Part shown: piece after piece, positions 14,546 through 64,000 of the stretch
How positions within the stretch are numbered: position 1 is the first letter of the stretch
Layout of the letters: each line of letters begins with the position of its first letter
NCBI GenBank assembly: GCA_963796685.1
Contig: CAWCMR010000013.1
Location: 416,001-480,000 of the forward strand
Origin: an uncultured delta proteobacterium
Lineage (GTDB): Bacteria; Myxococcota_A; Polyangia; Fen-1088
DNA length: 64,000 nt
Direction of reading: 5' to 3'
Position numbers and translations under genes: made by a program
The notes under the pieces: generated by a model
The model's database searches: none
Seen by the model: the letters and a program-made list of their open reading frames with translations, nothing else
What the model was told of the DNA's origin: nothing

Positions 14546-16367
14546 ATGGCGACCCTTCGAATCCACGCGCCCGGTACCGGCGTGAAGGTCTACCACATCT
14601 ACAAGAAGCTCACTTCGCTGGGCAAAGGCGAAGGGGTGGATGTGCTCTTGCAGGATCCGCTCCTCGCCGATACCCACGCGCACATCCATTTCGACGGTCG
14701 CGACTTCAACATTTCGGTGACCGATAGGGACGCGGACCTGCACGTGAACGGCAGGCGTCGCACCAAGCACCGGCTGTCCCAAGACGACCGCATGCGCATC
14801 GGCGGTGTCGAGCTGGAGTTCTCGCTCTACGACGAGCCGGTGACCGACGAGGTGGCGGCCAAGACCATGGCCGAGCTGAACTCGTACAAGCGGCTGTTCG
14901 AGTTCTCGCAGAAGCTGATGAACAACTACGAGATTCCGAGCCTGCTCGATGCGCTGCTCGACGTGGTCATCCAGGTCAGCAACGCCGACAAGGGGTTCAT
15001 CGTGTTGCTCGAATCCGGCGAGCCGGTCGTCAAGGTCGCGCGCAACCTGCGCCGCGAGACCATCTCGGATGCGGTTCGCCACCTGTCCGACTCGATCATC
15101 AAGCGCGTGGTCGAAAGCCGCCAGCCGCTCATCATTTCGGACGCGCTCAACGACAGCAGCTTCAAGAACTCGCTATCGGTGATGAACCTGCGCCTGACCT
15201 CGGTCATGTGCGTGCCCCTCCTCGAGCGCGGAAACCTCATCGGGCTCATCTACGTGGGGAACGACAACGTGGCCCAGCTCTTCGACCAGGCCGCGCTGGA
15301 GATCCTGACCATCTTCGCGGCCCAGGCCTCGCTGGTCATTCGCAATGCACTCCTGGTCAACGAGCTTCAGCTCGACAACCAGTCTCTGCAAGAGCGCATC
15401 GAGCGTATCCGGTTCGGCGAAATCCTGGGCTCTTCGCCCGGGATCCAGGAGGTGTTCCGCAAGGTCCAGCGTGTCGCGGGGACCGACATCACGGTGCTGG
15501 TCACCGGCGAGACCGGTACCGGCAAGGAGCTCATCGCGCGCGAAATCCACAACCGCTCGCTGCGCGCCAAGGGGCCCTTCATCAGCGTGAACTGCGGCGC
15601 GATTCCCGAGAACCTGCTCGAGTCGGAAGCTCTTCGGTCACGTGCGCGGCGCCTTCACGGGCGCGATCGCCAACAAAGCCGGCCGCTTCCAGTCCGCCAA
15701 CAAGGGGACCCTCTTCCTCGACGAGATCGGCGAGATGCCCCACGCGCTGCAAGTCAAGATCCTACGCGCCTTGCAGGAGCACATCGTGACCAAGGTGGGC
15801 GACACCTCGGCCGAATCGGTGGACATCCGGGTCATCGCCGCCACCAACCGCGACCTCGAGGTCGAGACGCGCAACGGCCGATTTCGTGAGGATCTCTACT
15901 ATCGTCTCAACGTGGTCCACCTCCTTCTTCCGCCGCTGCGCGACCGCGGCGACGACATCGTGGTGCTCGCCCGCTACATGTTGGCGCGCTATGCCCCCGA
16001 ATACAGCAGCAAGGTCCGCGGTTTTTCGCCGTCCGCCATCGTGGCCATCAAACGCTACCGCTGGCCAGGAAACATCCGCGAGCTGGAAAACCGCATCAAG
16101 AAGGCCGTCGTGCTGGCCGACAAGACCATGCTTGGGCCGGACGACCTGGGCATCAACCTCGACGAAATCCCGGCCATTTTGCCCTTGGCCGACGCCCGCG
16201 AGCGTTGGCAGCGATCGTACATCAACGAGGTCTTGGGACTGAACGGCGGCAACCGGACCAAGACCGCGCGCGACCTCGGCGTGGATCCGCGCACAATCTT
16301 CAGGCACCTCGAAAAGGAGGAAGGCGGCGAAGGCTCTGATGCTCCGCCGTCCTTGGACGAACCCTGA
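14546..16367 (+). CDS. FHA-GAF-sigma54 AAA+-HTH transcriptional activator (frameshift about 15628)
   Basis: FHA-like N-terminus, GAF (SVMCVPL), [11 protein letters not shown]|[12 protein letters not shown] restored by removing one [19 protein letters not shown], Fis HTH. Confidence 0.92.
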
Positions 16368-39940: not shown

Positions 39941-40480
39941 CTACTTCTGCTTGGCTTCTTCGTCGCTGAATTCGACCTTACCGGTGTACTTCGGGCCCTT
40001 TCCGCGCAACCAGAATTTGGTCTGCGCCAGGACCCGCGTGCCGGACTCGATGGTCATGAGGTACTGTTTGTTGGTGTCGAATTCCGGCTTGGCCACGGTG
40101 ATGCTGGCCGAGAAAATGCGACTCCCGCGCTCGCGCGTGTACTGCTCGTCGCCAGCCACGTACTTCTGCGATCCGCCACCGACCTCCCAGAACTTGACCG
40201 TGATTTCGTTGTCGTTTAGCGGCCGCGCAAAGAAGGCGATGTATTCGAATTTCCACACCGCGACGTCGTTGCCCTTCTCTTCCTTGGGCCACACCTTGTC
40301 GATCGAGGCACGGTGGATGGCCTGGACGAACGCGCCCTCGGAAGAGAAATGCGTCGGCAGACGGTTTTCGGTGATGATGATTCTGCCCTTGAAGACATCC
40401 TCCGGTTTTGCCGCCAGCGCTACCGAAGAGACCAGCATCGTTCCAAGGATGACCGCCGAAACACGATTGAACTTCAACAT
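39941..40480 (-). CDS. Secreted hypothetical protein
   Basis: Signal peptide ending ALA, GAGGG RBS, typical codon bias. Confidence 0.75.
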   Translation of the reverse strand: MLKFNRVSAVILGTMLVSSVALAAKPEDVFKGRIIITENRLPTHFSSEGAFVQAIHRASIDKVWPKEEKGNDVAVWKFEYIAFFARPLNDNEITVKFWEVGGGSQKYVAGDEQYTRERGSRIFSASITVAKPEFDTNKQYLMTIESGTRVLAQTKFWLRGKGPKYTGKVEFSDEEAKQK

Positions 40481-40588
40481 CGATACCCTCGTGTGATTGG
40501 TTGTTGTGGGATCAAATCTAGCCGCTTTTTGGGCAGGAAGAACAGGGCTTTTTTGACGGCTGGCCCTGCCCTGCTAGCTTGTTCTTTG

Positions 40589-45455: not shown

Positions 45456-45639
45456 AAGCCACTCGGTAACCTGGATTCACGCCTCGCGAGCTCACAGAAT
45501 CGTGACAATCTGGACCCCTACCCGCCTCTACCCGCACCGAGGTCAGTATATCCATCGCGCCCATCGCGCAACCATTTTCGACCCGGAAAACGCCATCGGG
45601 AATGTCGGCTCCATGCGGTATAGTCGCCCCGGACTCTCG

Positions 45640-47077
45640 ATGCTCGACCAGAATCACGGCTCGCACGACCATTTCGCCCATCGGGGTAGCGCTGGCGCCG
45701 AGAAAAGCCGCGTGGCTCTCGTCTCGGTGCTGGCCGCGTTGCTCCTGACCGGGACCAAGGTCGTCGTGGGTTTCTGGACGGGAAGCCTGGGCATCCTTGC
45801 CGAGGCGCTCCACTCGGGGCTCGACTTGGTGGCGGCGCTCGTCACCCTGTGGGCGGTGCGGGCCAGCAGCCGCCCTGCGGACAAGGAGCATGCTTACGGG
45901 CACGGCAAGATCGAGAACCTGTCCGCGCTGTTCGAAACCTTGCTGCTGCTGGCGACCAGCGCATGGATCATCAAAGAGGGGATCGCACGCCTGTTCTTTC
46001 GCGCCCAGGTCCACGTGGACGCCAACCTGTGGTCTTTCCTGGTGGTCGTTCTCTCCATCGCCGTGGACTATTCTCGCTCGCGAGCGCTCTTGCGCGTGGC
46101 CAAGAAACACGACAGCCAGGCCCTGGAAGCGGACGCCCTGCACTTTGCGACGGATATCTGGTCGTCCCTGGTGGTCTTGCTCGGTCTCGGCGGCGTCCTG
46201 GTGGCGCACGCGTTCGAGATTCCATGGCTGGCCAAGGCGGATGCTGTGGCCGCCCTCGGCGTGGCCCTGGTCGTGGTGCTCGTGAGCGCGAAGCTCGGGA
46301 AGAAATCCGTCAACGACCTCCTCGACACCGTACCATCGGACCTGGCCGCGCGGATCGCAGGCTTGGCCCATGTCGTCGGCGTACGCGAAGTCAGGCAGGT
46401 TCGCGTGCGGCGCAGCGGTCCCGAGGTCTTCGTCGACTTGACCTTGGTGGTGGACCGGGGCGAGTCCCTGCAACGTAGCCACGAGAATCGCGTGTGGCGC
46501 CGAGGCGGCCATCAAGCGCGAGCTGCCCAAGGCCGATATCGTCGTGCATGTCGAGCCCGCGGAAGGCTCGGGCGAAGACTTGCTCACAGCCGCCCGCCGT
46601 GTCGCGGCCTCACACGACGCCGCCGCCCACAATCTTCTCGTCTACGAAGAGGACGCCCAGCTCGTGCTCGAAATGCACCTGGAGATGCACGCCGAGTTGC
46701 CCTTGTCGCAGGCCCATCGGCGGACGGTGGAGATCGAGGAAGAGCTGCGCAGAACCACCCCGCGCCTGGCGCGAGTCGTCACCCATGTCGAGCCCGCGGG
46801 CGGGGTGCGCGCCACGACCCTGGCCACGCCAGAGGAGGCCGCGCAGCTTCGCCAAGCGCTGGCCTGCATCCCCGAGCTCTCCGCACGAGGCATCACGCAT
46901 CAAAATATCGAAATAAGGCGTTCGGGGTCTGAATTTGCACTTTCCTTCCGCTGCGCCCTGCCCGGGTCGACCTCGATCAGGGACGCCCACGATTTCACCG
47001 AGAAGATCGAACGCGCGCTACGCAGCCAGGTGCCGAATCTGGGCCGCGTTATGGTGCGAACCGAGCCCATGGAGTAG
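45640..47077 (+). CDS. Cation diffusion facilitator with three tandem C-terminal dimerisation domains (frameshift about 46486)
   Basis: AEALHSGLD, PADKEHAYGHGKIE, EADALHFATD; repeats ending VHVEP, THVEP and RTEP. Confidence 0.88.
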
Positions 47078-51393: not shown

Positions 51394-51618
51394 GATGAGC
51401 CTCCGGCAAGTGCGGTCGGATACTATCCACGAGTCTTGGCTCACGCCAGCGCAAAGATAGACGCATCGCACGTGACACATCGTATGTCTCCGACTCAACA
51501 TCGCGCCTGATGGGCGAACAAGCTTTCCGCGAAGCAGCTCGACAGCAGCGGGAAGGACCGGTCACCGACTGGATCGGATCCAGGTTTGATCGTATTCTCC
51601 CCTCGGAATAGTGAGGAT

Positions 51619-53080
51619 ATGGCGTTGCAGATCGGACAGCTCTTCGGCAACTACCGCGTCGTGCGCCTGATAGGGGAAGGAGCCTTCGGCGAGGTCTACC
51701 TTGTCCAAAACCCGCTCATCGATCGCCGGGCCGCCGTCAAGGTCTTGCGGCCGATGCTCGCGCTGGACTCGGAGCTGGTCCGACGCTTTTTCAACGAAGC
51801 GCGCGCGGCAAGTGCGATCCGTCATCCCAACATCATCGATGTCTATGACGCCGGTGGAACACCCGAGGGAGCTCCCCTATATCCTCATGGAGTTTCTCGA
51901 GGGGAAATCGCTGAAGAAACACTTGGCGGAGACCGGCAGGTACTCCGTGTCACAAATGCTGGAGGTCGCCAGCCAAGCGGGCTCGGCGTTGGCGGCTGCT
52001 CACGCCGTCGGGATCGTTCACCGCGATCTGAAACCAGAAAATCTGTTTCTGGTACCCGACGTGACCGAGCCGGGCAGCGTGCGGGTGAAGATCCTGGATT
52101 TTGGCATCGCGAAAGTGAAGGGTCGCAGTGGCGGAGGCAAGGAAAGCGTCCGGACGGAAAGTGGCCTGATCATGGGTAGCCCGACGTATATGTCGCCTGA
52201 ACAGTGCAAGGACAGTGCAGACGTCGATCACCGGGCGGACATCTACTCTTTCGCGACGATTCTCTACGAAATGCTGGCAGGTAGACCTCCCTACATGGCG
52301 CCGACGGGAGTGGAATTGCTGCTCTTGCATTTGTCCGAGCCGGCGCGACCGTTGCACGAGCTCGTCCCCGGTGTGCCAGACCATGTGGAAGACGCCATCA
52401 TGCGTGCCCTGCGCCAGGAGCGGAACGATCGTTTTGATGGCGTTCCGTCCCTTCTCAGGGCGTTGCGGGGACCGGCAAGCGGCGACCTGACCAGCTCGCA
52501 GCCGCGTGAGCAGCTGCGTGAAAAGGTGCAGTCGGACACGCCGGCCCCTGCGTCGGACTTCGACCGAACCCTGGTAGGCCCAGCTCTCAGCACGTTTTCG
52601 CAAGCCAATGCGCAAGTCGTTTCGCAATCGGGGATCAAAACCCACGTTGTCACGAGATCCTTCGGGCGCTGGTTGGGACTTGCCCTCGGTGGATTGGTCG
52701 GGCTTGCACTACTGAGCTTCTCGCAGCTCCGGCGCGGCCAGGACACGCTGCCGCCGGGCGTGATCGCAGGTGCGGCCGTGCCCGTTCGACATTCGGCCCT
52801 AGTGAACACCGCCCCCGCGGCTCCACCTCGGGCGGCGGGAAGCGAGGTGCGGCCATTGGCCGTAGCTGCGGCAGCCGATGCACCGGACGCAGGCAAGAGC
52901 ACGAGCACGAGCGCGGGGATCGCGGTGGCGAAAGGAACGGCAGGGCAGCACCGAGCCGCCACGCGAGCCAAGACCACCATGGTCAAGCCTTATGTCCCGC
53001 CGATGCTTGGGCGCAGATCCGCTGCTGCGCGCCCTTCCCTTCAGCCTCAGCCGGATCCGGAAGATGTCGCCGGTTTCTAG
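51619..53080 (+). CDS. Membrane Ser/Thr protein kinase (frameshift about 51872)
   Basis: GEGAFGEVY...HPNII in ORF 51586-52179 continues as PYILMEFL, HRDLKPEN, DFG, YMSPEQ in ORF 51701-53080. Confidence 0.9.
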
Positions 53081-53119
53081 ACCTCAAGTGACTGACCCAG
53101 AGCTCGCCATGTGGCAGCC

Positions 53120-53980
53120 ATGAAGTGCAAACCTGTTTACGCGGTATGGGCGCTGGCCTTTGTTGCGGCATGGCCGGGCGTGGCTCGTGCAACCGACGAT
53201 CGTGCCAAAGCGGATGCGCGCAACCTGGCCAAGGCGGCCAAGCGTGACTTCGACGCCGGTCACCTCGAGGACGCGCAGCTCAAGTTTCAAGAAGCATACG
53301 CCATCGCCAAGGTGCCAACGCTGGCCCTCTGGACGGCACGCGTGATGGTGAAGCGGGGCCAATTCATCGCAGGGGCCGAGCTCTACCGACTGGCCACACA
53401 GCTTGCGCCCAACGATCTTTGGATTGGCAACGCACAGGAGCGAGCCCAGGCGGATGCGACGCGGGAGCTGGCGGCATTGCAACCTCGAATTCCAAGACTG
53501 CGCATCCATGTGCAAGGCGCCGCACCCGGGGAAGTCGAGCTCACGGTGGACGATGTCAGAATAGCGGGCACCTCGCTCGATGCCGATTTGCCGGCCAATC
53601 CTGGCCAGCATCGCGTGGTGGGCAAGAAGGACGCGCAGACCGTGGAATTGGTCATCGACCTCGTGGAAGGCGAGAGCAAGGATGCGCTTCTGAGCTTCCG
53701 CAGAAGCATATCCGCAGCCGCACCGGCTGCCATCGCCACATTGGCCGATCCGGCCGCGGGGGCCTCGATGGCTGCCGCTCCGGCGGGCGTGGCGAAGATG
53801 GCCGCCAATCCCGCGCCGACAGAGGCGGCGGGAAGTAGCCGACCGGTCTACGCGAAATGGTGGTTTTGGACCGGCGTTGGTGCAGCCGTCGTTGCCGGGA
53901 CCGTGACGGCCTTTGTGCTCACCCGCCATCCGGACGGAGCTTGCGGTGGGGCGAGCGTCCCCTGCGTGGAGGTGAAATAG
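53120..53980 (+). CDS. Exported TPR + PEGA-like protein with C-terminal TM segment
   Basis: Signal peptide, TPR helices, VELTVDD/ANPGQHRV PEGA-like strands, PVYAKWWFWTGVGAAVVAG. Confidence 0.75.
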   Translation: MKCKPVYAVWALAFVAAWPGVARATDDRAKADARNLAKAAKRDFDAGHLEDAQLKFQEAYAIAKVPTLALWTARVMVKRGQFIAGAELYRLATQLAPNDLWIGNAQERAQADATRELAALQPRIPRLRIHVQGAAPGEVELTVDDVRIAGTSLDADLPANPGQHRVVGKKDAQTVELVIDLVEGESKDALLSFRRSISAAAPAAIATLADPAAGASMAAAPAGVAKMAANPAPTEAAGSSRPVYAKWWFWTGVGAAVVAGTVTAFVLTRHPDGACGGASVPCVEVK

Positions 53981-53982
53981 CG

Positions 53983-55701
53983 ATGCGGCGTGGCCCTTGG
54001 AGGTTGGTCCTGGCTTGGGCGCTGCTCGGTGCCTGTTCGAACGACAGCAGCAGCACCAAAATCATGGTCGTGGTCTGGAGCAATCTCACGGTCCCGACGG
54101 AGATGGACACCATTCGCGTCGACGTCGTCGGCTCGACTTCAGCTCCATCGGTCACCTTTCCACTGACGGCCGGTAACGACAGCGGAAAGTCCAAGCTTCC
54201 CGTTGTCATGGAGCTGGTGTCGCCGGATAACCAGGGCAGGTCATTCGAAGTCGTTGCCACCGGGCTCTCGAACAGCGCCACCGTTGTCACCCAAGCAGCG
54301 ACATTGTCGTTTGCTCCCGGGCACAACCGAGTGCTCACGCTGCTTCTCGATCGTGCTTGCCGTTATGCGACAAGCGGCCCGTGTGTGCAAACCGCCAGCG
54401 TGGATGTGAACACACTTCCGGAATACGATCCGTCGAAGCCCTTTCTCGCCCCTGATGCAGGGATGGTTACCCCAAGCCAGTCCGACGGCAGCGTCGAGAC
54501 CGGCAGCGATGCTCTCGCTGTGGGTGCGTTGCCGGGGAACGATGCGCTCCCTGGTACGCCGGCCACCGATGCCCGGCAGCCTGGCGACGCCGCTCCTGAC
54601 AACGTCCCGGCTGTTCCAGACGCCGCACTGGAAGCGCCCCTTGAAGCTCCGGTAGACACCCATGACACCGCCGATACGCCGTCGTATCCAAGCGAGTCGG
54701 GGAAGCGCCGAAGGATGCAGCCGTGGTGCAGGACGGCCCTCCGGCGTGCGGCCTTCCGGAGAACCCATGCATGCAAAATGGCGACGGCGCCGCGGATGAG
54801 GCTTCGACCTCGTTCGCCAGCGATGTGCGCGACGAGCCGCCTGAGAGCGGCGATACTCTCTCGGATACACTGCCGGATTCTGCCGGCTTCGGCCGACTCG
54901 AGCCGCGACCTCCCGCTTGAAGTCGAAGCGGGGCAGGACCAGGCGGATGGGACCACGTGCGTTCTTCCCATGGCCACTTGCTCGGGTGTCTGCATCAATC
55001 CAGAGACCAATCCAGACGACTGCGGCGGATGTGGTCGGGCCTGCGGAACGCAGAACGGTACCCCGAGCTGCACGACAGGCACATGTTCGATGTCGTCCTG
55101 CCTACCGGGCTTCCTCGATTGCAGTGCCGATGAGAACGTGAGCCGGGACGGGTGTGAGACCAACGGGAACACGGATAGCGCCAATTGTGGCCGCTGTGGA
55201 AACGCATGTTCGTCCAAGGTTTGCCGAAGTCAGACCTGCCTCGCGACCGCACGCTACGGCAACACCGGACCAGGCACGGGCGCCTCGCCCTTCTCGGGCA
55301 ATTTTCTGGCAGGAATCCAGGTCTACATTCCGAGCCCGAGCGTGGTCACCGGGTTCGGCGCCGTCCTCTACAACTCGACAGCGAGTTGCAACATGGTCCT
55401 CGGCCTATACAAGGACATGGCCGGTGCCCCCGGCGACCTCGTAGCCACCGTGACCGCCCCTGCCTTGGTCGCTCCAGGTGGCAAAGAGCTATCCGTGTCG
55501 CCACCCGTCGACATCCTTGCGGGCACCTACTGGATCCTCGGGGTTTGGGATGGTTTAGCCACATTCTCGAGCAACTCCGCGACGCCGGTCACCTGGCGCT
55601 ACGCCTCTTATCCATTTGGTGCCCTGCCCCCGACCGCTCCATCGAGCATGACCGCGGGCAGCTTTCCGCCTCCCAATGTTTACGTGATTGTCGCCCAGTA
55701 A
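53983..55701 (+). CDS. Cys-rich surface lipoprotein (Stigma1-like repeats); probable compensating indels about 54695 and 54885
   Basis: Lipobox LGAC; Asp/Ala/Pro linker; TNPDDCGGCGRAC, DGCET, NCGRCGNAC; beta-rich C-terminal domain. Confidence 0.78.
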   Translation: MRRGPWRLVLAWALLGACSNDSSSTKIMVVVWSNLTVPTEMDTIRVDVVGSTSAPSVTFPLTAGNDSGKSKLPVVMELVSPDNQGRSFEVVATGLSNSATVVTQAATLSFAPGHNRVLTLLLDRACRYATSGPCVQTASVDVNTLPEYDPSKPFLAPDAGMVTPSQSDGSVETGSDALAVGALPGNDALPGTPATDARQPGDAAPDNVPAVPDAALEAPLEAPVDTHDTADTPSYPSESGKRRRMQPWCRTALRRAAFRRTHACKMATAPRMRLRPRSPAMCATSRLRAAILSRIHCRILPASADSSRDLPLEVEAGQDQADGTTCVLPMATCSGVCINPETNPDDCGGCGRACGTQNGTPSCTTGTCSMSSCLPGFLDCSADENVSRDGCETNGNTDSANCGRCGNACSSKVCRSQTCLATARYGNTGPGTGASPFSGNFLAGIQVYIPSPSVVTGFGAVLYNSTASCNMVLGLYKDMAGAPGDLVATVTAPALVAPGGKELSVSPPVDILAGTYWILGVWDGLATFSSNSATPVTWRYASYPFGALPPTAPSSMTAGSFPPPNVYVIVAQ

Positions 55702-55756
55702 GACAGGTCGCCTAGCCTAGCGTTACTGCGAAAACCTTCTGCCAAGGAGATCCCCG

Positions 55757-56239
55757 ATGCCCTCTACCATCAGCTTCGATCATTCCAACCTGTATTCCAA
55801 TACCGGCCTCGTTCCCTCGCCCGGGTGCAGAGTCGACACCGCGACCAACATCACCATTTCTCTTTTCAACACCGGCTCGGCCGCATCTGTTGTGGTCCAC
55901 TTGTGGTGGATTGGTCCAACGCTTTCGGCTTCTGCCGGGCCCATGGTCGATCTGGTGAACTGCAACAAGCTGGCGCCACCTTACGGCCCCGCGCAACCGG
56001 TGGTGTTGACCGTGGAACCCTCTGTCGGTCACAACCCCGGAGGACACATCACAGTCTCGTGGATTCCAAGCAGCACGGACTTCCCCCGCGCACTGGGCTT
56101 GCATGTCCCCGGTTGCCTCTTCGCGCAAGTCGAGGTTCTGCCCGTCCCGCCAATCTCCCCGGGGGACACCTCGGCCTTGAACAACTGGAGTCCGGCGTAC
56201 GCCCTTTGCGCTCAGCACAACATCCAGATCTCCACGTAG
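55757..56239 (+). CDS. Hypothetical protein (beta-rich, 160 aa)
   Basis: AAGGAG RBS; Ig-like strand pattern, HVPGCLFAQV...CAQHNI. Confidence 0.65.
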   Translation: MPSTISFDHSNLYSNTGLVPSPGCRVDTATNITISLFNTGSAASVVVHLWWIGPTLSASAGPMVDLVNCNKLAPPYGPAQPVVLTVEPSVGHNPGGHITVSWIPSSTDFPRALGLHVPGCLFAQVEVLPVPPISPGDTSALNNWSPAYALCAQHNIQIST

Positions 56240-57276
56240 AAGCGAGTGTGCTCGAGTCGGCGCCGCGTTGTCGCACTGGACGCCCCTCGCGTCATCGAGT
56301 GCTGCCCGGAAAGCTGGAAGGCCCTTCCGTGAACGTGGGTGACGCAGGCAAAGGGATCGATCAACAGCGGAGAAAGCGCGGAAAATACGACGATGGTGCG
56401 CATCCGCGCCAGCAGGAGCGGCCATGGCCGCGTGGGTACCTTGTGCCAGCCCAGGCGTTTCTCGGCCAGGACCAGCCCGGCGTGGAGCAAGAAGAAGCCC
56501 ATGACCGAGACGCAGGGCAAGGCGATCAGGTCCGGGGGACCGGCGCCTACGACCGCCATCACGTGCAGAACACCGGAGGCCGTGAAGGCCGCCAGCAATC
56601 CCAGCTGGGGGCGCGAGCGAGCGTGGGGCTGGTAAAAGCCCCGCCTGAGATTGCCCTGTACCATTCGGTTCCAGCGTCGCGCCCAAAATTCGGCAAGCGA
56701 TGCCGACAGCAGCGGGTGGTCCTGAAGGCCCTCCACCGAGCGCCCGCACAGCCCCGCAATACCGACGATCAGATGATGCACACCCGCGGCGCCGACGGCG
56801 ACCTCCAACATGACCAGCTGGTCGTCCAAGACTCGAAACGGCAGGGACTTCTGCCACAGGCGCCAATGGTTTCCCCAGACCAGCAACAAGACGCATCCGG
56901 CGAGCCCCGCAGCTCCCAGCCCGATGGCCAGCAGCGGCCGGCTTCTCGGCGCGGAGTTGGGGGCAAAGAGATCTTCCGGGACGATCAGGTCCAACACAAG
57001 ACGCGCAGCGCTCGCTGCTTGCTCCTGATCGGGGCGCCGATTTCGGTGAGCGAGGGCCACCATGCGAATGCCCAGATAGCCGGCCACCAGGCCAAGAATG
57101 AGCTGCGCCGGACCAGGACCTCGGGTCAGCGCCGGGGCCACACATGTGGCCAGCAGGATGCCAAGGCGGAGACCGGCTCGCAGACGCGAATCGCGCACCT
57201 GCCCTGCCCTGGCGTAGACGACACCCAGCATGACAATGCCGGGCACCAGAAATAGCGAAGCGGGGAAGAGCAGCAT
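56212..57276 (-). CDS. MBOAT_2 / wax-synthase-type membrane O-acyltransferase
   Basis: PLLSASLAEFWARRWN and AFTASGVLH motifs; multiple TM helices. Confidence 0.82.
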   Translation of the reverse strand: MLLFPASLFLVPGIVMLGVVYARAGQVRDSRLRAGLRLGILLATCVAPALTRGPGPAQLILGLVAGYLGIRMVALAHRNRRPDQEQAASAARLVLDLIVPEDLFAPNSAPRSRPLLAIGLGAAGLAGCVLLLVWGNHWRLWQKSLPFRVLDDQLVMLEVAVGAAGVHHLIVGIAGLCGRSVEGLQDHPLLSASLAEFWARRWNRMVQGNLRRGFYQPHARSRPQLGLLAAFTASGVLHVMAVVGAGPPDLIALPCVSVMGFFLLHAGLVLAEKRLGWHKVPTRPWPLLLARMRTIVVFSALSPLLIDPFACVTHVHGRAFQLSGQHSMTRGASSATTRRRLEHTRFYVEIWMLC

Positions 57277-57438
57277 GCAGAACGGCGGCCGCGCGCCAGG
57301 CGCAACCTTAGCAGGCGCTGGCGCGTTTTCTCCACCCCGGCCTGCGCGAGCAGATCCGCCGCGGTGAATTCAGATCATCACGGCTTCTGCCATCATCCTT
57401 GACGCGGATGGGTCAAAGACTAGAGTAACCATCCAGCC

Positions 57439-60400
57439 ATGGCGCTTCTCGGACGCGATACCTCGGTGACGGGGCCTTTCCCTGCTGGGGTCTTGTTGCT
57501 CGAAACCCTGCATGGCCACGAAGCGCTGGGGCGGACGTACCGGTTCGAGCTCAGCCTGCTCTCGAAGGAGCCGAACCTCGATCCAGACGACGTGCTCGGC
57601 AAGCCGCTTGCGGTGGGCATCCAACTGAACACCGGCAAGGAGCGCTTCTTTCACGGCATCGTGACCGGTTTCCAAAAAGGTGGGGCCACGCAACTACACA
57701 CGCGCTACGCGGCCGAGCTGCGGCCGGTGTTGAGCCTGTTCGACCACACCTTCGACTGCCGCGTCTTCAACGATCCCGCGCAGGACGCGCTGTCCATCGT
57801 GAAATCGGTGCTGGCCAAGCGCGGGCTCGGCGACGTCGAATCGGGGTCGATCCAGGACCACGTCTACCGCGCGCGCGAATTCTGCGTGCAGTACCGCGAG
57901 AGCGATCTGAATTTCGTGCAGAGGCTGCTGGAGGAAGAAGGCATCTACTATTTCTTCAAGCACGAGGAGAGCAAGCACACCTTGGTGCTGGCCGATGCCA
58001 TCACTGCGCACCAGGCCGTCGACGGCTACGAATCGATTCTGTACACCGCGAAGGAGCGACGGGTTGCAGGCGCCGAAGAGCACTTCTGGGGCATGAAGGT
58101 GCGCCGAGCGCTCTATCCCGGCCGCCACACGGTGCTCGGCGGCTACGACCCGACGGCGCCGCGGCCGAGACAGCCTCAATTCGGGCGGGGCACGTCTGAG
58201 GATCTGGTGACGGGCTACCCGTTCGAGCACTACGACTATCCGGGCGGGCTCTTCGATCCTCGAGAAGCGCAGCAGGAAGCGGCCGTGCGCGCGCAAGCGG
58301 GTCGCGCGGACAACACCGTTATCGAGGTGGAAGGCAACACCGTGGGCCTGGGACTTGGCCATCTGGTGTCCCTGCGCCCGGGACCGGATGGGGCCGACGG
58401 GCCGTTCTGGAGCGAAGAGGATTTCGGCAAGCAGTACCTGGTGGTCGGCGCGAGCTATCACCTGAGCGTCGATCAATACGAGACCGGGGATGTGGCCTTC
58501 AGCGACGAGCCGTTCAAGGCGACGTACCAGCTGCTCGACAGTCACGTGCAGTTCCGACCCGCCCGTGTCACGCGCAAGCCGCACATGCCGGGCCGCCAAA
58601 CGGCGCTGGTGGTGGGCCCGGCGGGCGAGGAGATTTGGACCGACAAGCACGGCCGCGTGATGGTGCAATTCGACTGGGATCGCCTCGGCGAGCGCAACGA
58701 GAAGTCGTCGTGTTGGGTGCGCGTGGCGCAGGCGTGGTCGGGGGCCAGGTTCGGCGCGCAATACCTACCGCGCGTCGGTCAAGAAGTGATCGTGGCGTTT
58801 CTCGACGGCGATCCCGACCGGCCCATCATCACGGGCAGCCTGTTCAACAAGGACAACATGCCGCCCTACGATCTGCCGGCCAACCAAACCCAAAGCGGCA
58901 TCAAGAGTCGCAGCACGAAGGGCGGCACGGCCAGCAACTTCAACGAGCTCCGATTCGAGGACAAGAAGGGTCAGGAAGAGCTGCACTTCCAGGCCGAGAA
59001 GGACATGTCGACGCTGGTCAAGCACGACCATACCCTGCACGTGGGGGTGAACCGCGGCATCGTCGTGGGCAACGACGAAACCAATCTGGTGAAGAACGAG
59101 CGCCAGCTCACCGTCGACGCGAACGACAGCGTGGTCATCGGCGGCACGCACGACAAGACGGTGACCGGCGCGGTCACGCAGCTCTGCGGCGGCGACCACA
59201 GCCGCAAGGTGGACGGTAATCAAGAAGCTCTTCGCGGAGAAGAACAAGGATGAGCACGTCAAGCGCGCCCACAAGCTGACCACCGACAAGAAGTTCCAGC
59301 TCAACCAGGGCGCAACCAGCATGACGTTCAAGGGCACCAACGTGACCGTGGACTCGGCTGGCACGATCACCCTGACCGCGGGCGGCGCCACGGTGTGCCT
59401 GGACAAGACCGGCAAGGCGACGTTCGACTCGCCAACGGGGATCAAGTTCGTGTGCGGCGCCAGCTCGCTGGCCATCCTGCCCGGCGGCGTCGCCATCGCC
59501 AGCCCCGCCGTGACCGCCGCCGCCGGCGCTGGCAGCGTGGTGGCCATGGGCGAAGAGACCGTCGCCATGAAGAGCAAGACCGTCACCCTCGAAGCCGACG
59601 GCGTGTGCACCATCAAAGGCAAGAGCGCGCTGAAGTTGCAGGAGGCGGACCCGGTCCAGGCGAAGAAGAACAAAGGGTCATCACCGGCTACGGGCGAGAG
59701 CCAGGAAGCGCCTGGCGCGGGCAGAAAACCCAGCAAGAGGCCGCAGAAGGAAGCGCAGCCTGAAAGCGCCAAGCTGGAGATCCACGTCATGGACCTGGAC
59801 GGGAAGCCACAGGAAGGGTTGGGGTTCGAGATCAAGATGCCAGACGGCGGAACCACTTCCGGCAAGCTCGATAAGGAAGGCCGCGGGTTGGCGAGGAGCT
59901 CTTCGCCGGGCGTCTTCAAGGTGACCTTTCCAGACCTCGACGGTGGTGATTGGGACGGCGATGGCGTGCTGGAGGTGCCCGAGGCAAAACGAAGCGAGGC
60001 AAGCGGCGTCAAGGCCACCTCGGAGGACCGTGTACCCGAGGTCGCGGCAGCCAAGGGCTTCGTCAGGTGGCGGACCGTGTGGGAATTCGCCGGCAACGTA
60101 GAATTAAGAGCCTTGCGCGAGAACCCCAACGTACTGCGCGACGGGGACATGGTGGCGATTCCAAACAAGGTCCCGCGCATCGCAGAGGTTCTGGGAGGAG
60201 GGGCCGAGTACGTGGTCAGGCGCGAGACCGAGAGGATCGTGACGTTCCGCCTGCTGGACTGGGAGCACCAACCGTTGGCAGGTTTGCGATATCAAGCAAA
60301 GACAGGCGACGAGGACATCAACCGTGGCGTCGTTCCCCAAGACGGCTGGGTGACCTTGGCGATTCCAGTCGACGCGCAGACGATTTGCGTCGCGGTGTAC

Positions 60401-60679
60401 CTCTCGGACAATGAAGACGATGCACCACTCGACCTGACATTCGAGGTTCGCGAGGAAGCGCTAGGCGATTCGCCCGAGCACAAGAACCAGCGTCTGCTCA
60501 ACCTGGGTTTCGCCGGCGAGCTGCCCGAGGGCGAGCCAGGCGGCGATGACGACGAGGTTGTTCGCCTGGCCCTGGCCCGGTACCGCAGCTTGGCCGGCAA
60601 TCACGAAGATGAAGATGGCGATGTGCTCGACAAGGCCGCGACCGTGCACGACGCCGAAGACGGCAAAGGACAGGCATGA
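57439..60679 (+). CDS. vgrG: Type VI secretion spike VgrG with long C-terminal extension (frameshift about 59226)
   Basis: REFCVQYRESDLNFVQRLLEEEGIYYFF, QTALVVGPAGEEIWTDKHGRV, SSCWVRVAQ, PRVGQEVIV.FLDGDPDRP, NELRFED, AEKDM. Removing one A joins this to ORF 59321-60679. Confidence 0.93.
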
Positions 60680-61624
60680 CCCAAATTACGCAGTTTGCGC
60701 TCGTCGTCATCGGGGTGGGCATCGCTTCCGTGATCGCCTCGCTCAAAGGCAGTGCGAAATGGCTTCTGCTGATCGTGGGCGCTTTCGTGGCCTGGATCGT
60801 GCTGCCGACGGTGATTCTGAACGGCAAGTGGGGCTACTACCAGGAAGATGGAGCGGCGATGGCAGGGGGATCCGTCCCCACCTTCCACGAGAGCAAGGAG
60901 GCCAACAGCAAATGGGCCGTGGATCTTGCCACGGAGGTTTGCGGCGACGCGGAGGGCTTCGATACACGGGACCACTCTCTGCAGGCGGTAGCGATGCCCG
61001 AACGGGCAATGGTTGAGCACTTGTTCTATTACAGCAGCTACAGCAATGTGATCTGGCGCGGGTTGGGCTGGAAAGATCGATACTGTTTGGCCCGCTATCT
61101 GGTGGTGGACAGACGAGATGCGTACCTTGTACTGGCTTCCAACACAGCTCTTTCCGTACCCTTTCGTTCCACTGGTGCCCGACACAAAGAGGCTGGAAGA
61201 GCGTCTTCTCGACCGCCTGCCGCCTCCGCCCAAGGCGCCGGACGGCGTGCGTTCGCTGCTCCCGGGCCAATGCGTAACCGGCGAGCTCGCAAAGGGTGAG
61301 ACTGCTCGTTTTCAGGTGCAGATGCCCTATTTCGGTCAGAAGATCAGACTCGACGTTAGCTTGGAGTGTGTCTACAAGGAGGACTACGCAGGACTCGTCG
61401 AGTGGACGAAGAACGGCAATCCCATCACGGGATTGACGGACGCGAGCGACGGTGGTGGGCTGTATCAGATCACGCTTCGAGCACCTGTCACCGGAGCGAA
61501 ACCGTACATAGTTGGCATCTTCTGGGGAGTCCACGATCACACATGCGACCGGCCCAGAGACTGGTGGTGGAAAAGATGTCGGCGCAGGTCGGATCCTGAC
61601 GCAACTGGCGCGACACCGAATTGA
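60676..61624 (+). CDS. Membrane-anchored hypothetical protein, candidate immunity/accessory protein (probable frameshift about 61072)
   Basis: ATG overlaps the vgrG stop; two N-terminal TM helices; ORFs 60676-61299 and 61118-61624 join by a one-base deletion (WK-IDTVWPAIWWW). Confidence 0.6.
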
Positions 61625-61668
61625 GTAAGCAAGCGTGGGGCAAGTACAAGAGCATCGGAGAACGGGAA

Positions 61669-63334
61669 ATGGCAGATAGAGATGGTTTTGACCCGAGCTT
61701 CCTGAGCGCCGCCGCATCCTGTGCTCTTCGCGACGCAAGCGCCGATGCCGCCACGCTAAAAACCTACTTCCAGACCAACCTGCGCTACGTCGATCCACTG
61801 TTCTATACCAACCTGTTTAATAGACTGGTCCGAGAAGTCCCCTCGGATCCCAGGGTCGTGACCGTGGCAAAGGAGACCAGTCAGGCTCTGCCCGTGATTG
61901 ACTTCGTCTATATGGATGTCGGCTGCTGGGCAGGAGCCGGCAACAACCAGGAGACAAAAGCCAAGGGGTGGACCAAGCACCGGGAATTCGGTGTGATTTG
62001 TGGCTACATGATCTTGCTCTGTGCCTTCGTCCCGGAGGAGAAGCCGAACTACTACGACCGCTACTCCAACCCGCAGGCATGGGACACGGACACGAGACAG
62101 CTTGCGCCCAGCGTGCTCATCGACGCCACGCTCACCCGTCACCCCGACTGGCCGAGGATTGCGGACGCTGCTGGACACGCTGGTAAACTGTGTTCCCAAT
62201 TCCAAGCTCTCCGTGCTCGGCGCCACGGCACTCACCTCCATCTACGTTCCCGTGCCCGCGCGCAAGAAGACGACGCCCATCACGATTTTCCTAGGCGACA
62301 TGCACGCGCCGGTCGCGACCAGTTCAGCGAACGCGCACATCGTGCAAGATGACCGTGAGATGCTGCGCGGCCGGCTGGAGGTCAGCGACTCCGACTTGCA
62401 CTGGCTCCGATCCGTCGCCATCGATCCGTGGCCCGTGCTAGCGGGCAAGGTGGGTAAGCGCATCCTCGACAACCAGAAGGATTTGCAGTGGGAGCAGACC
62501 ACCTCGCGCGAGTCGGTCGACAACTGGCTTCGTCTCTACCACGTCGAGGGGCAACGAACTGCGGACATCTTCCAAGATGCCGGCAAGGATCTGCGCGCGT
62601 TCGTCGACGCCCTGGCAGACTTTCACCAAAACACCTGGCCGCTCGAGCTCGTGCAACTGGGCGATCTCTTCGACCTCTGGCTGGGTTTTCAGCGTGCGTT
62701 TGGCGAGAAGCTCGGAAAGACCCCGGCCCTGGACAACCTGCACGGCAAGGCGCTCGACTTCGCCCGCTTTTGGGTCGAGCGCAGCCTGTTCGAGACCGAC
62801 CAGGGGCCGCACCTGGTCCACCTGCTGACGCTCGGCGAGCGTGCCGGAAAGAATCGACAAACCGGTGCGCCTCTGCGGACGACCTTCATCCACGGCAATC
62901 ACGACAACTATCTGAAGCACGGCGGTGGAAAGCCTATCGAGGTGCCTTCTGACCACGAGCACGCGGGCCTGAAGATCAACGCCTTTCACCTGCCGTCATT
63001 CGAAGAAAAGACCGGCCTGTGGGCCGAACACGGCCACCAGCCCGACAGCTTCAATCGCGACGAGAACCCCAGCTCCGGACACCAGTTGACCCAGGCCGCG
63101 TTCTTTCAGCCGGACGTGCGCAGATTCGAGGGGCCAGCGGGCTGGGCGACCTCGATGGGAGACGGCAAGGGAATCCAGCGCGTGAAGAGCATCGATCATG
63201 CCCTGCATCGCTGCCTGCTCGACCACGTCGATCATGGCCAGCCCTGCCGTGGCGCGTACGTCATGGGCCATACCCACGAGGCCATGCTCAAGCGGGTCGA
63301 GTTGTGGCCATGTCCGCCGCACAAGTACCGCTAG
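61669..63334 (+). CDS. Calcineurin-like metallophosphoesterase with unknown N-terminal domain (frameshift about 62156)
   Basis: Motifs GDMH, LGDLFDLW, HGNHD, EHGH and MGHTH in the correct order; ORFs 61621-62352 and 62021-63334 join at HPDWPR-LRTLL. Confidence 0.78.
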
Positions 63335-63442
63335 CCTGAACTACCGTTGGGAAGCGGGGCGCGGCACCAGAAAACAGCGCGCGGTGACAAGATCGAGATT
63401 GTCCTTCGGTCGCGTAGGAAGTTAGATCGTGGTTCGGAGACG

Positions 63443-64000
63443 ATGATGGGGAAGATGTCGAACAGGATGATCACGGCGAGAGCGATTGCGACCGCACTGG
63501 TGGTGGCCACGCTGGTCGCCGCGCCGGCGCGCGCGGCCGACAAGCTCGAGGCCAAGGAGCGCAAGGCGCGGGTGGAGTGCGCGGCGGGCGACTATGCCGA
63601 AGGGGTGCGACTGCTGGCCGAGCTTTGGGTGGCCACGGGCGATGCCACGTTCTTGTACAACCAGGGGCGCTGCTACGAGCAGAGCGGCCAGAACGATCTG
63701 GCTGTCAGCCGGTTCCGTGAATACCTGCGCAAGGCCCCGGCCTTGCCGGCGGAAGATGTCGAAGCGGTGAACCGGCGCATCGACGAGCTCCAGCGCCAGG
63801 CGGCGAGTCGCGCGGCCCCTGCCCCGACGGTCATCAACCTGGTCTCGCCGACGGCCCCGCCTCTCCCTGCACCTGCACCCTCGCCTGCGGCGAGCGTCGA
63901 CCGCTCGGCCGAGCTGGTGTCCTCGCCTCAGCCCGCGCCTGCTTCCGATTCTCCGGTGTACGCCCGCTGGTGGTTTTGGACCGGCGTCGGCGCCGTCGTG
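63443..64000 (+). CDS. Exported TPR protein (partial), paralog-like to 53120-53980
   Basis: Hand translation: signal peptide, ECAAGDYAEGVRLLAELW...LYNQGRCYEQ, Pro-rich linker, PVYARWWFWTGVGAVV; runs off the window. Confidence 0.8.
   Translation, partial: MMGKMSNRMITARAIATALVVATLVAAPARAADKLEAKERKARVECAAGDYAEGVRLLAELWVATGDATFLYNQGRCYEQSGQNDLAVSRFREYLRKAPALPAEDVEAVNRRIDELQRQAASRAAPAPTVINLVSPTAPPLPAPAPSPAASVDRSAELVSSPQPAPASDSPVYARWWFWTGVGAVV

What the first reader, a model, noticed from the sequence alone, without database searches (positions are those of the whole stretch)
57439..63334. Orphan VgrG cassette with a candidate new T6SS effector class: LpxH-motif metallophosphoesterase plus a membrane partner
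Seen: three tightly packed + strand genes (vgrG, a 2-TM protein overlapping its stop, then a ~555-aa protein with all five calcineurin-like motifs GDMH/GDLFDLW/GNHD/EHGH/GHTH). No other T6SS genes are in the window, and the two downstream genes look less GC-biased than the housekeeping genes. Established: genes downstream of orphan vgrG usually encode cargo effectors and immunity proteins, and this motif pattern resembles the LpxH/YbbF metallophosphoesterase group. Inference: this is a secreted toxin hydrolysing a pyrophosphate or phosphodiester substrate (lipid A precursor, nucleotide-sugar, phospholipid or nucleotide messenger), with the membrane protein as immunity. I do not know this as a characterised effector class.
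Basis: partly seen in the sequence, partly recalled or inferred. Interest (0 to 1): 0.8.

Follow-up and report, generated by a model that had tools for sequence, protein, structure and literature searches.

The report
Orphan VgrG with phosphoesterase cargo
A type VI secretion spike gene is followed by a membrane-anchored protein and a very divergent LpxH-like metal-dependent phosphoesterase that sits beside such spike genes in several bacterial phyla, which makes it a good candidate for an uncharacterised class of secreted antibacterial toxin.

Summary
On the + strand lie vgrG (57439-60679), a membrane-anchored gene X (60676-61624) and a ~555-aa protein (61669-63334) with all five metallophosphoesterase (MPE) motifs. 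Each gene has one frame break. At least four other genes in the window, including polA, are broken the same way.

The MPE belongs to an unnamed family. A profile search found 476 representative proteins. There is no Pfam or NCBIfam hit, no PDB sequence hit, and no Foldseek hit at E<=0.001, although the model is confident (pTM 0.91). Its nearest known relative is LpxH (hhalign 93.9%; Foldseek ranks 1-10, all weak).

A T6SS vgrG lies directly upstream in 10 of 19 informative related loci, in at least four separate clades. One locus sits inside a core T6SS cluster. Most other loci replace VgrG with peptidoglycan-binding proteins (LysM/PG_binding_1/OmpA), either adjacent or fused to the MPE. The window's VgrG tail is that same module, fused on. 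X-like proteins are export-anchored, keep two conserved cysteines and are often tandem, which looks like immunity.

Best reading: a T6SS cargo toxin that acts in the prey cell envelope, with X as immunity. Secretion, toxicity, binding and substrate are untested. It is a new enzymatic variant of a known kind of system.

The parts
57439..60679 (+). vgrG (T6SS spike, TssI), about 1080 codons if read through. One frame break lies between 59214 and 59222.
   Evidence: Pfam Phage_GPD, Phage_base_V and Gp5_trimer_C. TIGR03361 at 545.7 bits, cut-off 186. The two frames align to the uninterrupted 1103-aa VgrG of L005 (69% and 60% identity).
59321..59650 (+). Beta-helical continuation of the spike, followed by a K/P/E/Q-rich linker that runs to about 59764.
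   Evidence: Read from the translation. No Pfam hit. The domain label is inferred.
59765..59965 (+). Small beta-sandwich 1 of the VgrG tail.
   Evidence: Resembles the separate small proteins L021:8118-8504 and L026:206-595, and the C-terminal repeats of L025:7853-8635, which hit Pfam SpaA and CarboxypepD_reg.
60020..60169 (+). LysM-like segment of the VgrG tail.
   Evidence: Aligns end to end with stand-alone proteins. 5 of 11 aligned members hit Pfam LysM; the window member itself hits nothing. Model helices 5-32 have pLDDT 76-88.
60230..60406 (+). Beta-sandwich 2 of the VgrG tail (transthyretin-like fold, weak evidence).
   Evidence: AF2 strands 71-142 with pLDDT 74-82. Foldseek finds transthyretin-like proteins with prob 0.98-1.0 but E 0.009-0.05. 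The top hit is 6sjl_A, the VgrG-Tle1 complex, at E 4.4e-3.
60479..60598 (+). PG_binding_1-like three-helix segment at the VgrG C-terminus.
   Evidence: Aligns with the QxRLxNLG region of homologs. 7 of 11 members hit PG_binding_1, best 3.8e-15; the window member hits nothing. Model helices 152-211 have low pLDDT of 45-64.
60676..61624 (+). Gene X: a membrane-anchored protein of about 315 aa and the candidate immunity protein. One frame break lies at about 61113-61121.
   Evidence: Homologs of 314-324 aa are uninterrupted. Hydrophobic helices lie at 60694-60744 and 60760-60819. The family has conserved Cys196/Cys287 and, in some members, a single anchor or a signal/lipobox-like N-terminus.
61669..63334 (+). 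Divergent LpxH-like binuclear metallophosphoesterase (MPE) and the candidate cargo effector. One frame break lies at 62160-62168.
   Evidence: 92% identical over the catalytic part to the intact 551-aa P0001. Motifs located. 41 of 41 invariant residues kept. AF2 model of P0001 has pLDDT 87.4 and pTM 0.91.
61669..62160 (+). Family-specific N-terminal domain of the MPE (signature YMDVGCWAG at 61909-61935, plus HREFG and LLCAF).
   Evidence: Nearly invariant columns. A domain HMM finds it together with the catalytic domain in 26 of the 28 catalytic-domain-bearing ORFs that are not cut at their N-terminus by a contig end or a split gene; L027, which starts at its contig end, is the one cut ORF with no separate N-domain piece.

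Best explanation
This is an orphan T6SS cargo cassette.

The VgrG spike carries a C-terminal tail. The tail is a fusion of modules that are separate small genes in other phyla: a beta-sandwich, then a LysM-like segment, a transthyretin-like beta-sandwich and a PG_binding_1-like segment. I infer that this tail holds the next-but-one gene product, a 555-aa binuclear metallophosphoesterase with no export signal, so that the enzyme is fired into neighbouring cells on the spike.

The enzyme's nearest known relative is LpxH, which cuts the pyrophosphate of a lipid-linked sugar nucleotide. It is far too divergent to be an LpxH. It travels persistently with three kinds of peptidoglycan-binding domain and, in one protein, with a muramoyl-alanine amidase. 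Its neighbour X is export-anchored and bears conserved cysteines. I therefore infer that it works in the prey periplasm or cell envelope, hydrolysing a phosphodiester or pyrophosphate bond of a membrane-bound or wall-linked molecule. In order of my preference the candidates are undecaprenyl-pyrophosphate-linked wall precursors such as lipid II, phospholipid head groups, and lipid A or other envelope phosphates.

X, anchored in the inner membrane with its domain in the periplasm, would protect the producer.

Shown here: gene identities, motif conservation, linkage to vgrG and to PG-binding modules, and distant LpxH likeness. Inferred: loading on the VgrG tail, periplasmic site of action, immunity role of X, and substrate.
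For: VgrG identity.

Family size and conservation:
- 66 clusters by word search.
- 476 representatives at E<=1e-3, 326 at <=1e-10, 156 at <=1e-30.
- All five motif blocks are invariant in 47 of 47 members, and the window keeps 41 of 41 invariants.

Linkage to vgrG:
- vgrG lies directly upstream on the same strand in 10 of 19 loci with at least 4 kb upstream: L005, L008, L013, L014, L016, L017, L018, L019, L021, L024. L001 is cut inside a VgrG tail.
- VgrG-linked rows fall in at least 4 separate well-supported clades of the enzyme tree.
- L021 also carries TssG, TssH/ClpV, two DUF2169 genes and a second VgrG.
- PAAR or PAAR-like genes lie near in L008, L013, L014 and L018, and DUF4123 follows the enzyme in L027.

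Linkage to peptidoglycan-binding modules:
- PG_binding_1 is adjacent or fused in 15 of 28 loci.
- Fusions: LysM-PG_binding_1-MPE in L025 and P0163; PG_binding_1-MPE in L028; Amidase_3-MPE in P0206.
- The window's VgrG tail aligns end to end with these modules.

Other points:
- No signal peptide is visible on the MPEs.
- X-like genes occur in 10 of 28 loci, up to three per locus, with an anchor or signal N-terminus and conserved cysteines.
- LpxH likeness.
Against: - No experiment of any kind supports the reading.
- 9 of the 19 informative loci have no vgrG within the flank. Five loci (L004, L010, L011, L012, L015) instead have a ~780-aa OmpA/PG_binding_1 protein without a signal peptide, of unknown role. 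Four (L020, L023, L025, L028) have only PG-binding modules.
- The window's own VgrG tail and MPE hit no Pfam model.
- Foldseek matches to LpxH are weak: E 0.035-0.23, TM 0.26-0.35 normalised to the target.
- X is absent from the Polyangiaceae, Planctomycetota and other distant VgrG-linked loci.
- All three genes carry a frame break here. Three breaks in 5.9 kb is more than the 4 confirmed breaks in the other 57 kb predict (P=0.0085, rising to 0.05-0.085 if 8-10 exist). The cassette may therefore be decaying in this genome.
- Whether the source genome has a T6SS is unknown.
Confidence: 0.6

Rival explanations
1. The cassette is a dead remnant in this genome. vgrG, X and the MPE are pseudogenes, each disabled by a frameshift, whatever the family does elsewhere.
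For: There is one frame break in each of the three genes. None lies in a homopolymer run. With 4 confirmed breaks in the other 57.4 kb, three in 5.9 kb has P=0.0085. Remnants of such cassettes exist elsewhere: a 149-aa VgrG-tail fragment in L004 and a VgrG N-terminal remnant in L015.
Against: polA, a sigma-54 activator, a CDF transporter and a Ser/Thr kinase are split in the same way, and further genes look suspect. So the record itself carries indel errors. With 8-10 true breaks outside the cassette, P rises to 0.05-0.085. Apart from one break each, the pieces have no stops and the MPE keeps 41 of 41 invariant residues.
Confidence: 0.2
2. The MPE is not a toxin. It is an envelope or peptidoglycan-associated accessory enzyme of the producer, for example one that remodels wall-linked phosphodiesters or helps the T6SS cross the wall. 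X would be its membrane partner.
For: The enzyme is linked to LysM, PG_binding_1, OmpA-like and Amidase_3 modules even without vgrG. X is membrane-anchored.
Against: The enzyme and its PG-binding partners have no signal peptide, so they cannot reach the producer's own wall by Sec. The position downstream of vgrG, next to PAAR, DUF4123 or DUF2169, is that of cargo. Tandem X paralogs fit immunity arrays better.
Confidence: 0.1
3. The MPE is a T6SS toxin that acts in the prey cytoplasm on nucleotides, cyclic nucleotides or nucleic acids, as many metallophosphoesterases do. X would not be its immunity protein.
For: The superfamily includes nucleases and cNMP phosphodiesterases. SbcD and a Pseudomonas 'nuclease MPE' appear among the weak Foldseek hits.
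Against: LpxH is clearly the best match in both hhalign and Foldseek. The conserved companions are peptidoglycan-binding, and the only conserved neighbour is export-anchored with conserved cysteines. No cytoplasmic immunity candidate was seen.
Confidence: 0.1

Closest known systems
EAEC Sci-1 VgrG1-Tle1-Tli1 (cargo effector loaded on the C-terminal DUF2345/TTR extension of VgrG)
   Same: Both have a VgrG with a C-terminal extension beyond the gp5-like needle that includes a transthyretin-like beta-sandwich. Both have a signal-less enzyme encoded next to it that attacks the envelope from the periplasm, and an envelope-located immunity protein. The domain scheme and Tle1 loading were read in passages of PMC10715212. 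The top Foldseek hit of the window's tail is 6sjl_A, the VgrG-Tle1 complex, at E 4.4e-3.
   Different: The cargo here is a metallophosphoesterase, not an alpha/beta-hydrolase lipase. The tail also carries LysM-like and PG_binding_1-like segments. No binding has been shown.
LpxH (UDP-2,3-diacylglucosamine diphosphatase, lipid A pathway)
   Same: Both have the calcineurin-like motif set, with GDLFDxW in motif II. hhalign gives 93.9% over 127 columns from motif III to motif V. All ten best Foldseek PDB hits are LpxH. In the model a helical insertion (helices 465-519) sits between motifs IV and V; I recall, but did not check, that LpxH's lipid-binding lid sits at that point.
   Different: This protein is 551 aa against 240 aa. 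It has an extra N-terminal domain of about 190 aa and an insert of about 120 aa between motifs I and II. It hits no NCBIfam or Pfam model. It has GNHD where E. coli LpxH aligns GNRD. Its context is vgrG and PG-binding genes, not lipid A genes.
TelC (T7SS-exported lipid II phosphatase of Streptococcus intermedius) with membrane immunity TipC
   Same: It is a functional analogue for my preferred substrate guess: a contact-dependent toxin that destroys a pyrophosphate-linked wall precursor outside the cytoplasm. I saw only the abstracts of PMC5555719 and PMC6193138 in the listing.
   Different: It uses a different secretion system and belongs to a different protein family. No activity on lipid II has been shown for the present enzyme.
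PlcP (metallophosphoesterase-type phospholipase C used in lipid remodelling)
   Same: It shows that this superfamily can cleave phospholipid head groups, which is a second plausible substrate class. I saw only the title of Wei et al. 2018, in the reference list of PMC9239053. The paper itself is not held.
   Different: PlcP is a cytoplasmic-face housekeeping enzyme and is not secreted.
[quoted passage not shown]
   Same: This is a bioinformatic note of the same idea: a metallophosphatase as T6SS cargo (Discussion passage of PMC12046857).
   Different: They are unverified, and no sequences were available to me. Whether they belong to this family is unknown.

Membership tests
T6SS spike protein VgrG/TssI | gp27-like hub, OB-fold and gp5-C beta-helix domains | tested here: met
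   Phage_GPD 1.1e-72, Phage_base_V 5.9e-15, Gp5_trimer_C 4.6e-32
T6SS spike protein VgrG/TssI | Scores above the curated cut-off of TIGR03361 | tested here: met
   545.7 bits against a cut-off of 186.35
T6SS spike protein VgrG/TssI | The genome encodes the T6SS core (TssA-M, Hcp) | not testable with these tools
   Only 64 kb is available and none was found among the 73 ORFs scanned. The related locus L021 has TssG and TssH.
Calcineurin-like metallophosphoesterase superfamily | Five motifs (DxH, GDxxD, GNH[DE], H, GHxH) that supply the metal ligands | tested here: met
   All five are present in the window and invariant in 47 of 47 family members. The assignment of ligand roles is recalled.
Calcineurin-like metallophosphoesterase superfamily | Match to Pfam Metallophos or Metallophos_2 at the gathering score | tested here: not met
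   The window pieces give no hit at E<=0.01. Of 47 members, 4 hit Metallophos_2 (best E 0.0034) and 1 hits Metallophos (E 0.011).
Calcineurin-like metallophosphoesterase superfamily | The fold matches solved members | tested here: inconclusive
   The confident model (pTM 0.91) gives 0 PDB hits at E<=0.001. The best hits are all metallophosphoesterases (LpxH, purple acid phosphatase, SbcD) at E 0.035-1.
LpxH family | Match to curated LpxH models or naming | tested here: not met
   P0001 hits no NCBIfam family. Only automatic JGI names on 3 distant relatives say LpxH.
LpxH family | Closest relative among the metallophosphoesterases compared | tested here: met
   hhalign: LpxH 93.9%, CpdA 19.5%, SbcD 18.6%, YfcE 5.9%. 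Foldseek ranks 1-10 are LpxH.
LpxH family | Single-domain enzyme of about 240 aa in a lipid A or housekeeping context | tested here: not met
   551 aa with an extra N-domain and insert. The neighbours are vgrG, X and PG-binding genes.
T6SS cargo effector with cognate immunity | Conserved linkage to vgrG, PAAR or adaptor genes across lineages | tested here: met
   10 of 19 informative loci, in at least 4 clades. PAAR, DUF4123 and DUF2169 lie nearby.
T6SS cargo effector with cognate immunity | Adjacent immunity protein located where the toxin acts | tested here: inconclusive
   X is export-anchored, has conserved cysteines and occurs in tandem copies in 10 of 28 loci. No binding or protection data exist.
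T6SS cargo effector with cognate immunity | T6SS-dependent export and toxicity | not testable with these tools
   This needs experiments.
LysM / PG_binding_1 peptidoglycan-binding domains (VgrG tail) | Match to the Pfam models | tested here: inconclusive
   The window segment gives 0 hits. It aligns end to end with homologs, of which 7 of 11 hit PG_binding_1 and 5 of 11 hit LysM. The model has low confidence in the PG_binding part.

The most novel reading that the evidence does not exclude
This family is the first T6SS effector class built on a metallophosphoesterase. It would be an LpxH-like enzyme carried on a peptidoglycan-binding VgrG tail, or on free LysM/PG_binding_1 adaptors. It would kill by hydrolysing the pyrophosphate of lipid-linked cell-wall precursors (lipid II or undecaprenyl pyrophosphate) in the prey periplasm. 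It would be neutralised by a new family of membrane-anchored periplasmic immunity proteins and be spread over Myxococcota, Planctomycetota, Armatimonadota, Acidobacteriota and others.
Probability: 0.2. Interest if true: 0.85.

Novelty: new variant of a known kind. Interest (0 to 1): 0.68.

Why it matters
T6SS effectors characterised so far, as I recall them, are amidases, glycoside hydrolases, lipases, nucleases, NADases, pore formers and a few others. In four literature searches I found no characterised metallophosphoesterase effector. I found only one passing, unverified prediction.

This is a sizeable family: 476 representative proteins at E<=0.001. It has no Pfam or NCBIfam model and no significant match to any solved structure, yet its catalytic motifs are invariant and it sits beside vgrG in several phyla.

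If it is a toxin, it adds a new chemistry to contact-dependent antagonism and possibly a new vulnerable envelope target. Its LysM / beta-sandwich / PG_binding_1 companions would be a new kind of VgrG adaptor. If it is not a toxin, it is still an unnamed enzyme family tied to peptidoglycan-binding modules.

Tried and rejected
- **Complex prediction of the MPE (P0018 alignment) with the periplasmic part of X (P0067 alignment).** No verdict: score 0.00, controls not run. This says nothing either way.
- **PDB sequence-profile searches.** The full-length profile (A1) gave 0 hits at E<=10. The catalytic-domain profile (A2) gave only three chance-level hits.
- **ESM Atlas.** For the MPE, only Metallophos-type clusters below 0.9 came up, which is a lead only. 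For X, there were weak PPC-like beta-sandwich leads at TM 0.31-0.40, based on an Atlas model with pLDDT 0.49.
- **BFVD fold search.** Nothing below E 0.25.
- **A VgrG-MPE fusion in L024.** Rejected. The 1828-aa ORF runs through a stretch of N at the junction.
- **Search for longer fused forms.** It found 6 proteins of 704-868 aa and no VgrG, PAAR or Rhs fusion, which is weak evidence. Of 26 long representatives, 23 had no Pfam domain.
- **The MPE N-domain as a separable trafficking module.** Rejected. The downstream 354-433-aa proteins of the Polyangiaceae loci that carry it also give weak catalytic-domain hits, so they are second paralogs. N-domain-only ORFs in L011 and L012 lie in disrupted genes.
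- **ClpB-like gene of the window as ClpV.** Rejected.
- **Alternative-frame ORFs meant to explain the unmatched ClpB N-half and a missing ETF-alpha domain.** No Pfam hits, so those two suspected breaks stay unconfirmed.
- **Promoter and terminator scan.** One promoter-like site at 57399-57426 against 0.9 expected by chance, and no terminator excess. Not used.
- **tRNA scan.** None found.

Full report
**What is in the window**

Between 57439 and 63334 the + strand carries three tightly packed genes.

The first is a T6SS spike gene. It matches Pfam Phage_GPD, Phage_base_V and Gp5_trimer_C and NCBIfam TIGR03361 at 545.7 bits against a cut-off of 186.

The second, here called X, starts with an ATG that overlaps the vgrG stop. 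It begins with two hydrophobic helices.

The third carries GDMH, GDLFDLW, GNHD, EHGH and GHTH at 62294-63277. Its ORF opens at TTG 61621, but intact homologs align from ATG 61669.

A codon-position GC plot and alignment to intact homologs show one frame-1 to frame-2 change in each gene: 59214-59222, about 61113-61121 and 62160-62168.

Among 73 other ORFs scanned, none is a T6SS gene. The ClpB-like gene scores as chaperone ClpB rather than ClpV.

The kinase-rich, FHA/sigma-54 and PilZ gene content and the nearest relatives point to Myxococcota.

**Are the frame breaks real?**

Outside the cassette, four genes have one Pfam domain split across two overlapping frames:
- polA (6920-9568 / 9102-9662)
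- a sigma-54 activator (14522-15886 / 15591-16364)
- a CDF transporter (44722-46929 / 46442-47074)
- a Ser/Thr kinase (51511-52098 / 51674-53077)

Several more genes look suspect: the ClpB N-half, etfA, the MBOAT gene and the TPR gene. Two of these checks gave nothing.

A broken polA argues that the record itself has indel errors. Still, three breaks in 5.9 kb exceed expectation if only four exist elsewhere (P=0.0085). The excess fades if 8-10 exist (P=0.05-0.085).

Apart from its break, the phosphoesterase has no stops and keeps 41 of 41 family-invariant residues. I favour record error but cannot exclude recent decay.

I used the pieces or natural intact homologs.

**The enzyme family**

The catalytic part finds 66 protein clusters. 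Most are uninterrupted proteins of about 550 aa, and the best is 92% identical. A profile of 47 members finds 476 representative proteins at E<=1e-3, 326 at <=1e-10 and 156 at <=1e-30.

The five motif blocks are invariant in all 47 members, and so are residues of a family-specific N-terminal domain.

The family is invisible to curated models:
- No Pfam hit for the window pieces.
- Weak Metallophos_2 hits in 4 of 47 members and a weak Metallophos hit in 1 of 47.
- No NCBIfam hit.
- No PDB sequence-profile hit.

An AlphaFold2 model of the intact homolog P0001 is confident (pLDDT 87.4, pTM 0.91). It still has no Foldseek PDB hit at E<=0.001. Ranks 1-10 are all LpxH (E 0.035-0.23), followed by purple acid phosphatase and SbcD. 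The viral library gives nothing below E 0.25.

Profile-profile comparison agrees. E. coli LpxH scores 93.9% over motifs III-V, against 19.5% for CpdA, 18.6% for SbcD and 5.9% for YfcE.

So this is a metallophosphoesterase by its motifs. It is closest to LpxH but is not an LpxH. It is more than twice as long, has an extra N-domain and an insert of about 120 residues between motifs I and II, and sits in a different genomic context.

**Genomic company**

One scan of 185,579 species genomes returned 28 loci. I annotated their neighbours by tblastn with the window's proteins, Pfam and NCBIfam.

Nineteen loci have at least 4 kb upstream of the enzyme gene. In 10 of them a full T6SS vgrG lies directly upstream on the same strand: L005, L008, L013, L014, L016 (Minicystis rosea), L017, L018, L019, L021 and L024. 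L001 is cut by its contig end inside a VgrG tail.

L021 (Phycisphaerales) also has TssG and TssH/ClpV above cut-off, two DUF2169 genes and a second vgrG. PAAR or PAAR-like genes lie near in L008, L013, L014 and L018. DUF4123 follows the enzyme in L027.

On a tree of 23 catalytic domains, the VgrG-linked rows fall in at least four separately supported clades.

An apparent VgrG-enzyme fusion in L024 is an artefact of a run of N.

The other nine informative loci lack vgrG:
- L004, L010, L011 and L012 (and the upstream-truncated L015, not among the 19) have a ~780-aa OmpA/PG_binding_1 protein without a signal peptide.
- L020 and L023 (and L026, whose upstream flank is too short to judge) have a small LysM/PG_binding_1 protein.
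- L025 and L028 have that module fused to the enzyme.
- L009 has only X-like genes.

**The peptidoglycan thread**

PG_binding_1 is adjacent or fused in 15 of 28 loci. The VgrGs of L008, L013, L014, L016, L017 and L019 end in it.

Among 26 long family representatives, one has LysM and PG_binding_1, one has an N-terminal Amidase_3, and one has a subtilase. None shows a signal peptide.

The last 219 residues of the window's VgrG align end to end with the free small proteins. Of the 11 aligned members, 7 hit PG_binding_1, 6 hit PG_binding_2 and 5 hit LysM. The window member itself hits nothing.

Its model has mean pLDDT 65.9. It shows a helical head, a beta-sandwich and three terminal helices. Foldseek gives no hit at E<=0.001. 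The best is chain A of the VgrG-Tle1 complex 6SJL (E 4.4e-3), and transthyretin-like proteins score prob 0.98-1.0 at E 0.009-0.05.

A further small beta-sandwich upstream in the tail matches separate small genes in L021 and L026 and repeats in L025.

The window's VgrG 'extension' is therefore a fusion of accessory proteins that are separate genes elsewhere. Fusions of the same module to the enzyme in L025, L028 and P0163 suggest that module and enzyme work together physically. This is an inference.

**Gene X**

The word search finds only 9 clusters, of about 315 aa. An iterated profile over the locus ORFs finds X-like proteins of about 300 aa in 10 of 28 loci, with up to three per locus. They occur in both VgrG and OmpA-type contexts, always next to the enzyme.

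They start with one or two hydrophobic helices or a signal/lipobox-like sequence. They share two nearly invariant cysteines and a C-terminal half with weak PPC-like beta-sandwich leads.

By the positive-inside rule (my reading), the domain faces the periplasm. This is the profile of immunity proteins against periplasm-acting effectors, but nothing shows binding. X is absent from the more distant VgrG-linked loci.

**Mechanism proposed**

The signal-less enzyme is mounted on the VgrG tail, fired into a neighbour and held at the wall by the peptidoglycan-binding modules. There it cuts a phosphodiester or pyrophosphate of a membrane- or wall-bound molecule, and X protects the producer.

By analogy with LpxH chemistry and the wall-binding company, I rank the candidate substrates in this order:
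1. Undecaprenyl-pyrophosphate-linked precursors, of which TelC of the T7SS is a functional precedent (abstracts seen in the listing).
2. Phospholipid head groups (PlcP precedent; title only).
3. Other envelope phosphates.

The substrate is the weakest step.

**Literature**

- 'metallophosphoesterase' + 'type VI secretion' + 'effector': one unrelated review.
- 'calcineurin-like' + 'VgrG': none.
- A broader five-term search led to one Discussion sentence predicting unverified metallophosphatase-domain effectors downstream of VgrG in Neisseria (PMC12046857, passage).
- 'VgrG' + 'phosphoesterase': eight papers. Of these I opened only the 2012 polymorphic-toxin survey (PMC3482391), which has no calcineurin or metallophosph term in the text held.

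Subscription papers and supplements were not searched.

**Left unchecked**

- The source genome's T6SS.
- Metagenome and viral contig neighbourhoods (collections closed).
- VgrG-tail to enzyme docking.
- All biochemistry.

**Verdict**

The T6SS-cargo interpretation is well supported by context and the immunity role is plausible. Toxicity and substrate are open. This is a new enzymatic variant of a known kind of system.

Noticed in passing
window 6920-9662 (-), 14522-16364 (+), 44722-47074 (+), 51511-53077 (+): polA, a sigma-54 activator, a CDF transporter and a Ser/Thr kinase each have one Pfam domain split across two overlapping frames. The record carries frame breaks well outside the cassette. 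The ClpB-like gene (40220-42814) matches ClpB only in its C-terminal part.
   Followed up: partly
window 53096-55701 and 63347-64000; repeat 53843-53889 / 63953-63999: Paralogous TPR / transmembrane ('WWFWTGVG') proteins flank the region that holds the MBOAT gene and the cassette. They share a 47-nt stretch at 81% identity. A homolog of the downstream one also follows the enzyme in L001. The upstream copy seems frame-broken and continues into an MXAN_6577-like cysteine-rich part.
   Followed up: partly
L004 8604-11632: A second enzyme module in L004 is preceded by only a 149-aa ORF that matches the end of the window's VgrG tail, then by X. It looks like a cassette that lost its VgrG core by recombination. 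The same locus has three X-like genes and two enzyme paralogs.
   Followed up: partly
L015 5085-5350: Directly downstream of the enzyme lies a remnant of the first ~89 codons of a vgrG. It is 87% and 59% identical to the window's VgrG N-terminus in two pieces and is followed by unrelated minus-strand genes.
   Followed up: no
L004 2300-4645, L010 5681-8035, L011 3583-5916, L012 671-3004, L015 1-1392: Proteins of about 780 aa with an OmpA-like domain and a C-terminal PG_binding_1, but no signal peptide and an unassigned ~350-aa N-terminal region, take the place of VgrG upstream of X-like genes and the enzyme. The N-terminal half of L025 7853-8635 looked similar to me by eye; I ran no comparison.
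   Followed up: partly
L016, L017, L019, L024 (Polyangiaceae): These loci share a CobW-type GTPase next to vgrG, a long (848-949 aa) enzyme form, a WD40 protein and a second, shorter and more divergent enzyme paralog downstream.
   Followed up: partly
L012 4711-8015; L011 7629-10861: In these loci the enzyme's N-domain and catalytic domain lie on separate ORFs. In L012 a DDE transposase gene (5139-6455) sits between them, so this is an IS-disrupted copy.
   Followed up: no
L007, L028, L020: Family members sit on contigs of MAGs labelled Methanosarcina barkeri (GC 0.37), Nitrososphaerota archaeon, and Fibrobacteraceae (contig GC 0.69). This could be gene transfer or mis-binned contigs. In L007 an ADP-ribosylglycohydrolase follows the enzyme.
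   Followed up: no
P0206, P0199 (family representatives): In P0206 the catalytic domain is fused to an N-terminal Amidase_3. In P0199 (1754 aa) it is fused to the C-terminus of a subtilase-containing protein. Three other extended members (P0124, P0142, P0153) have alanine-rich helical N-termini of unknown family.
   Followed up: partly
window 55712-57369 (-): The divergently oriented MBOAT_2 gene upstream of vgrG also seems to be spread over two frames (56215-57369 and 55712-57145).
   Followed up: no
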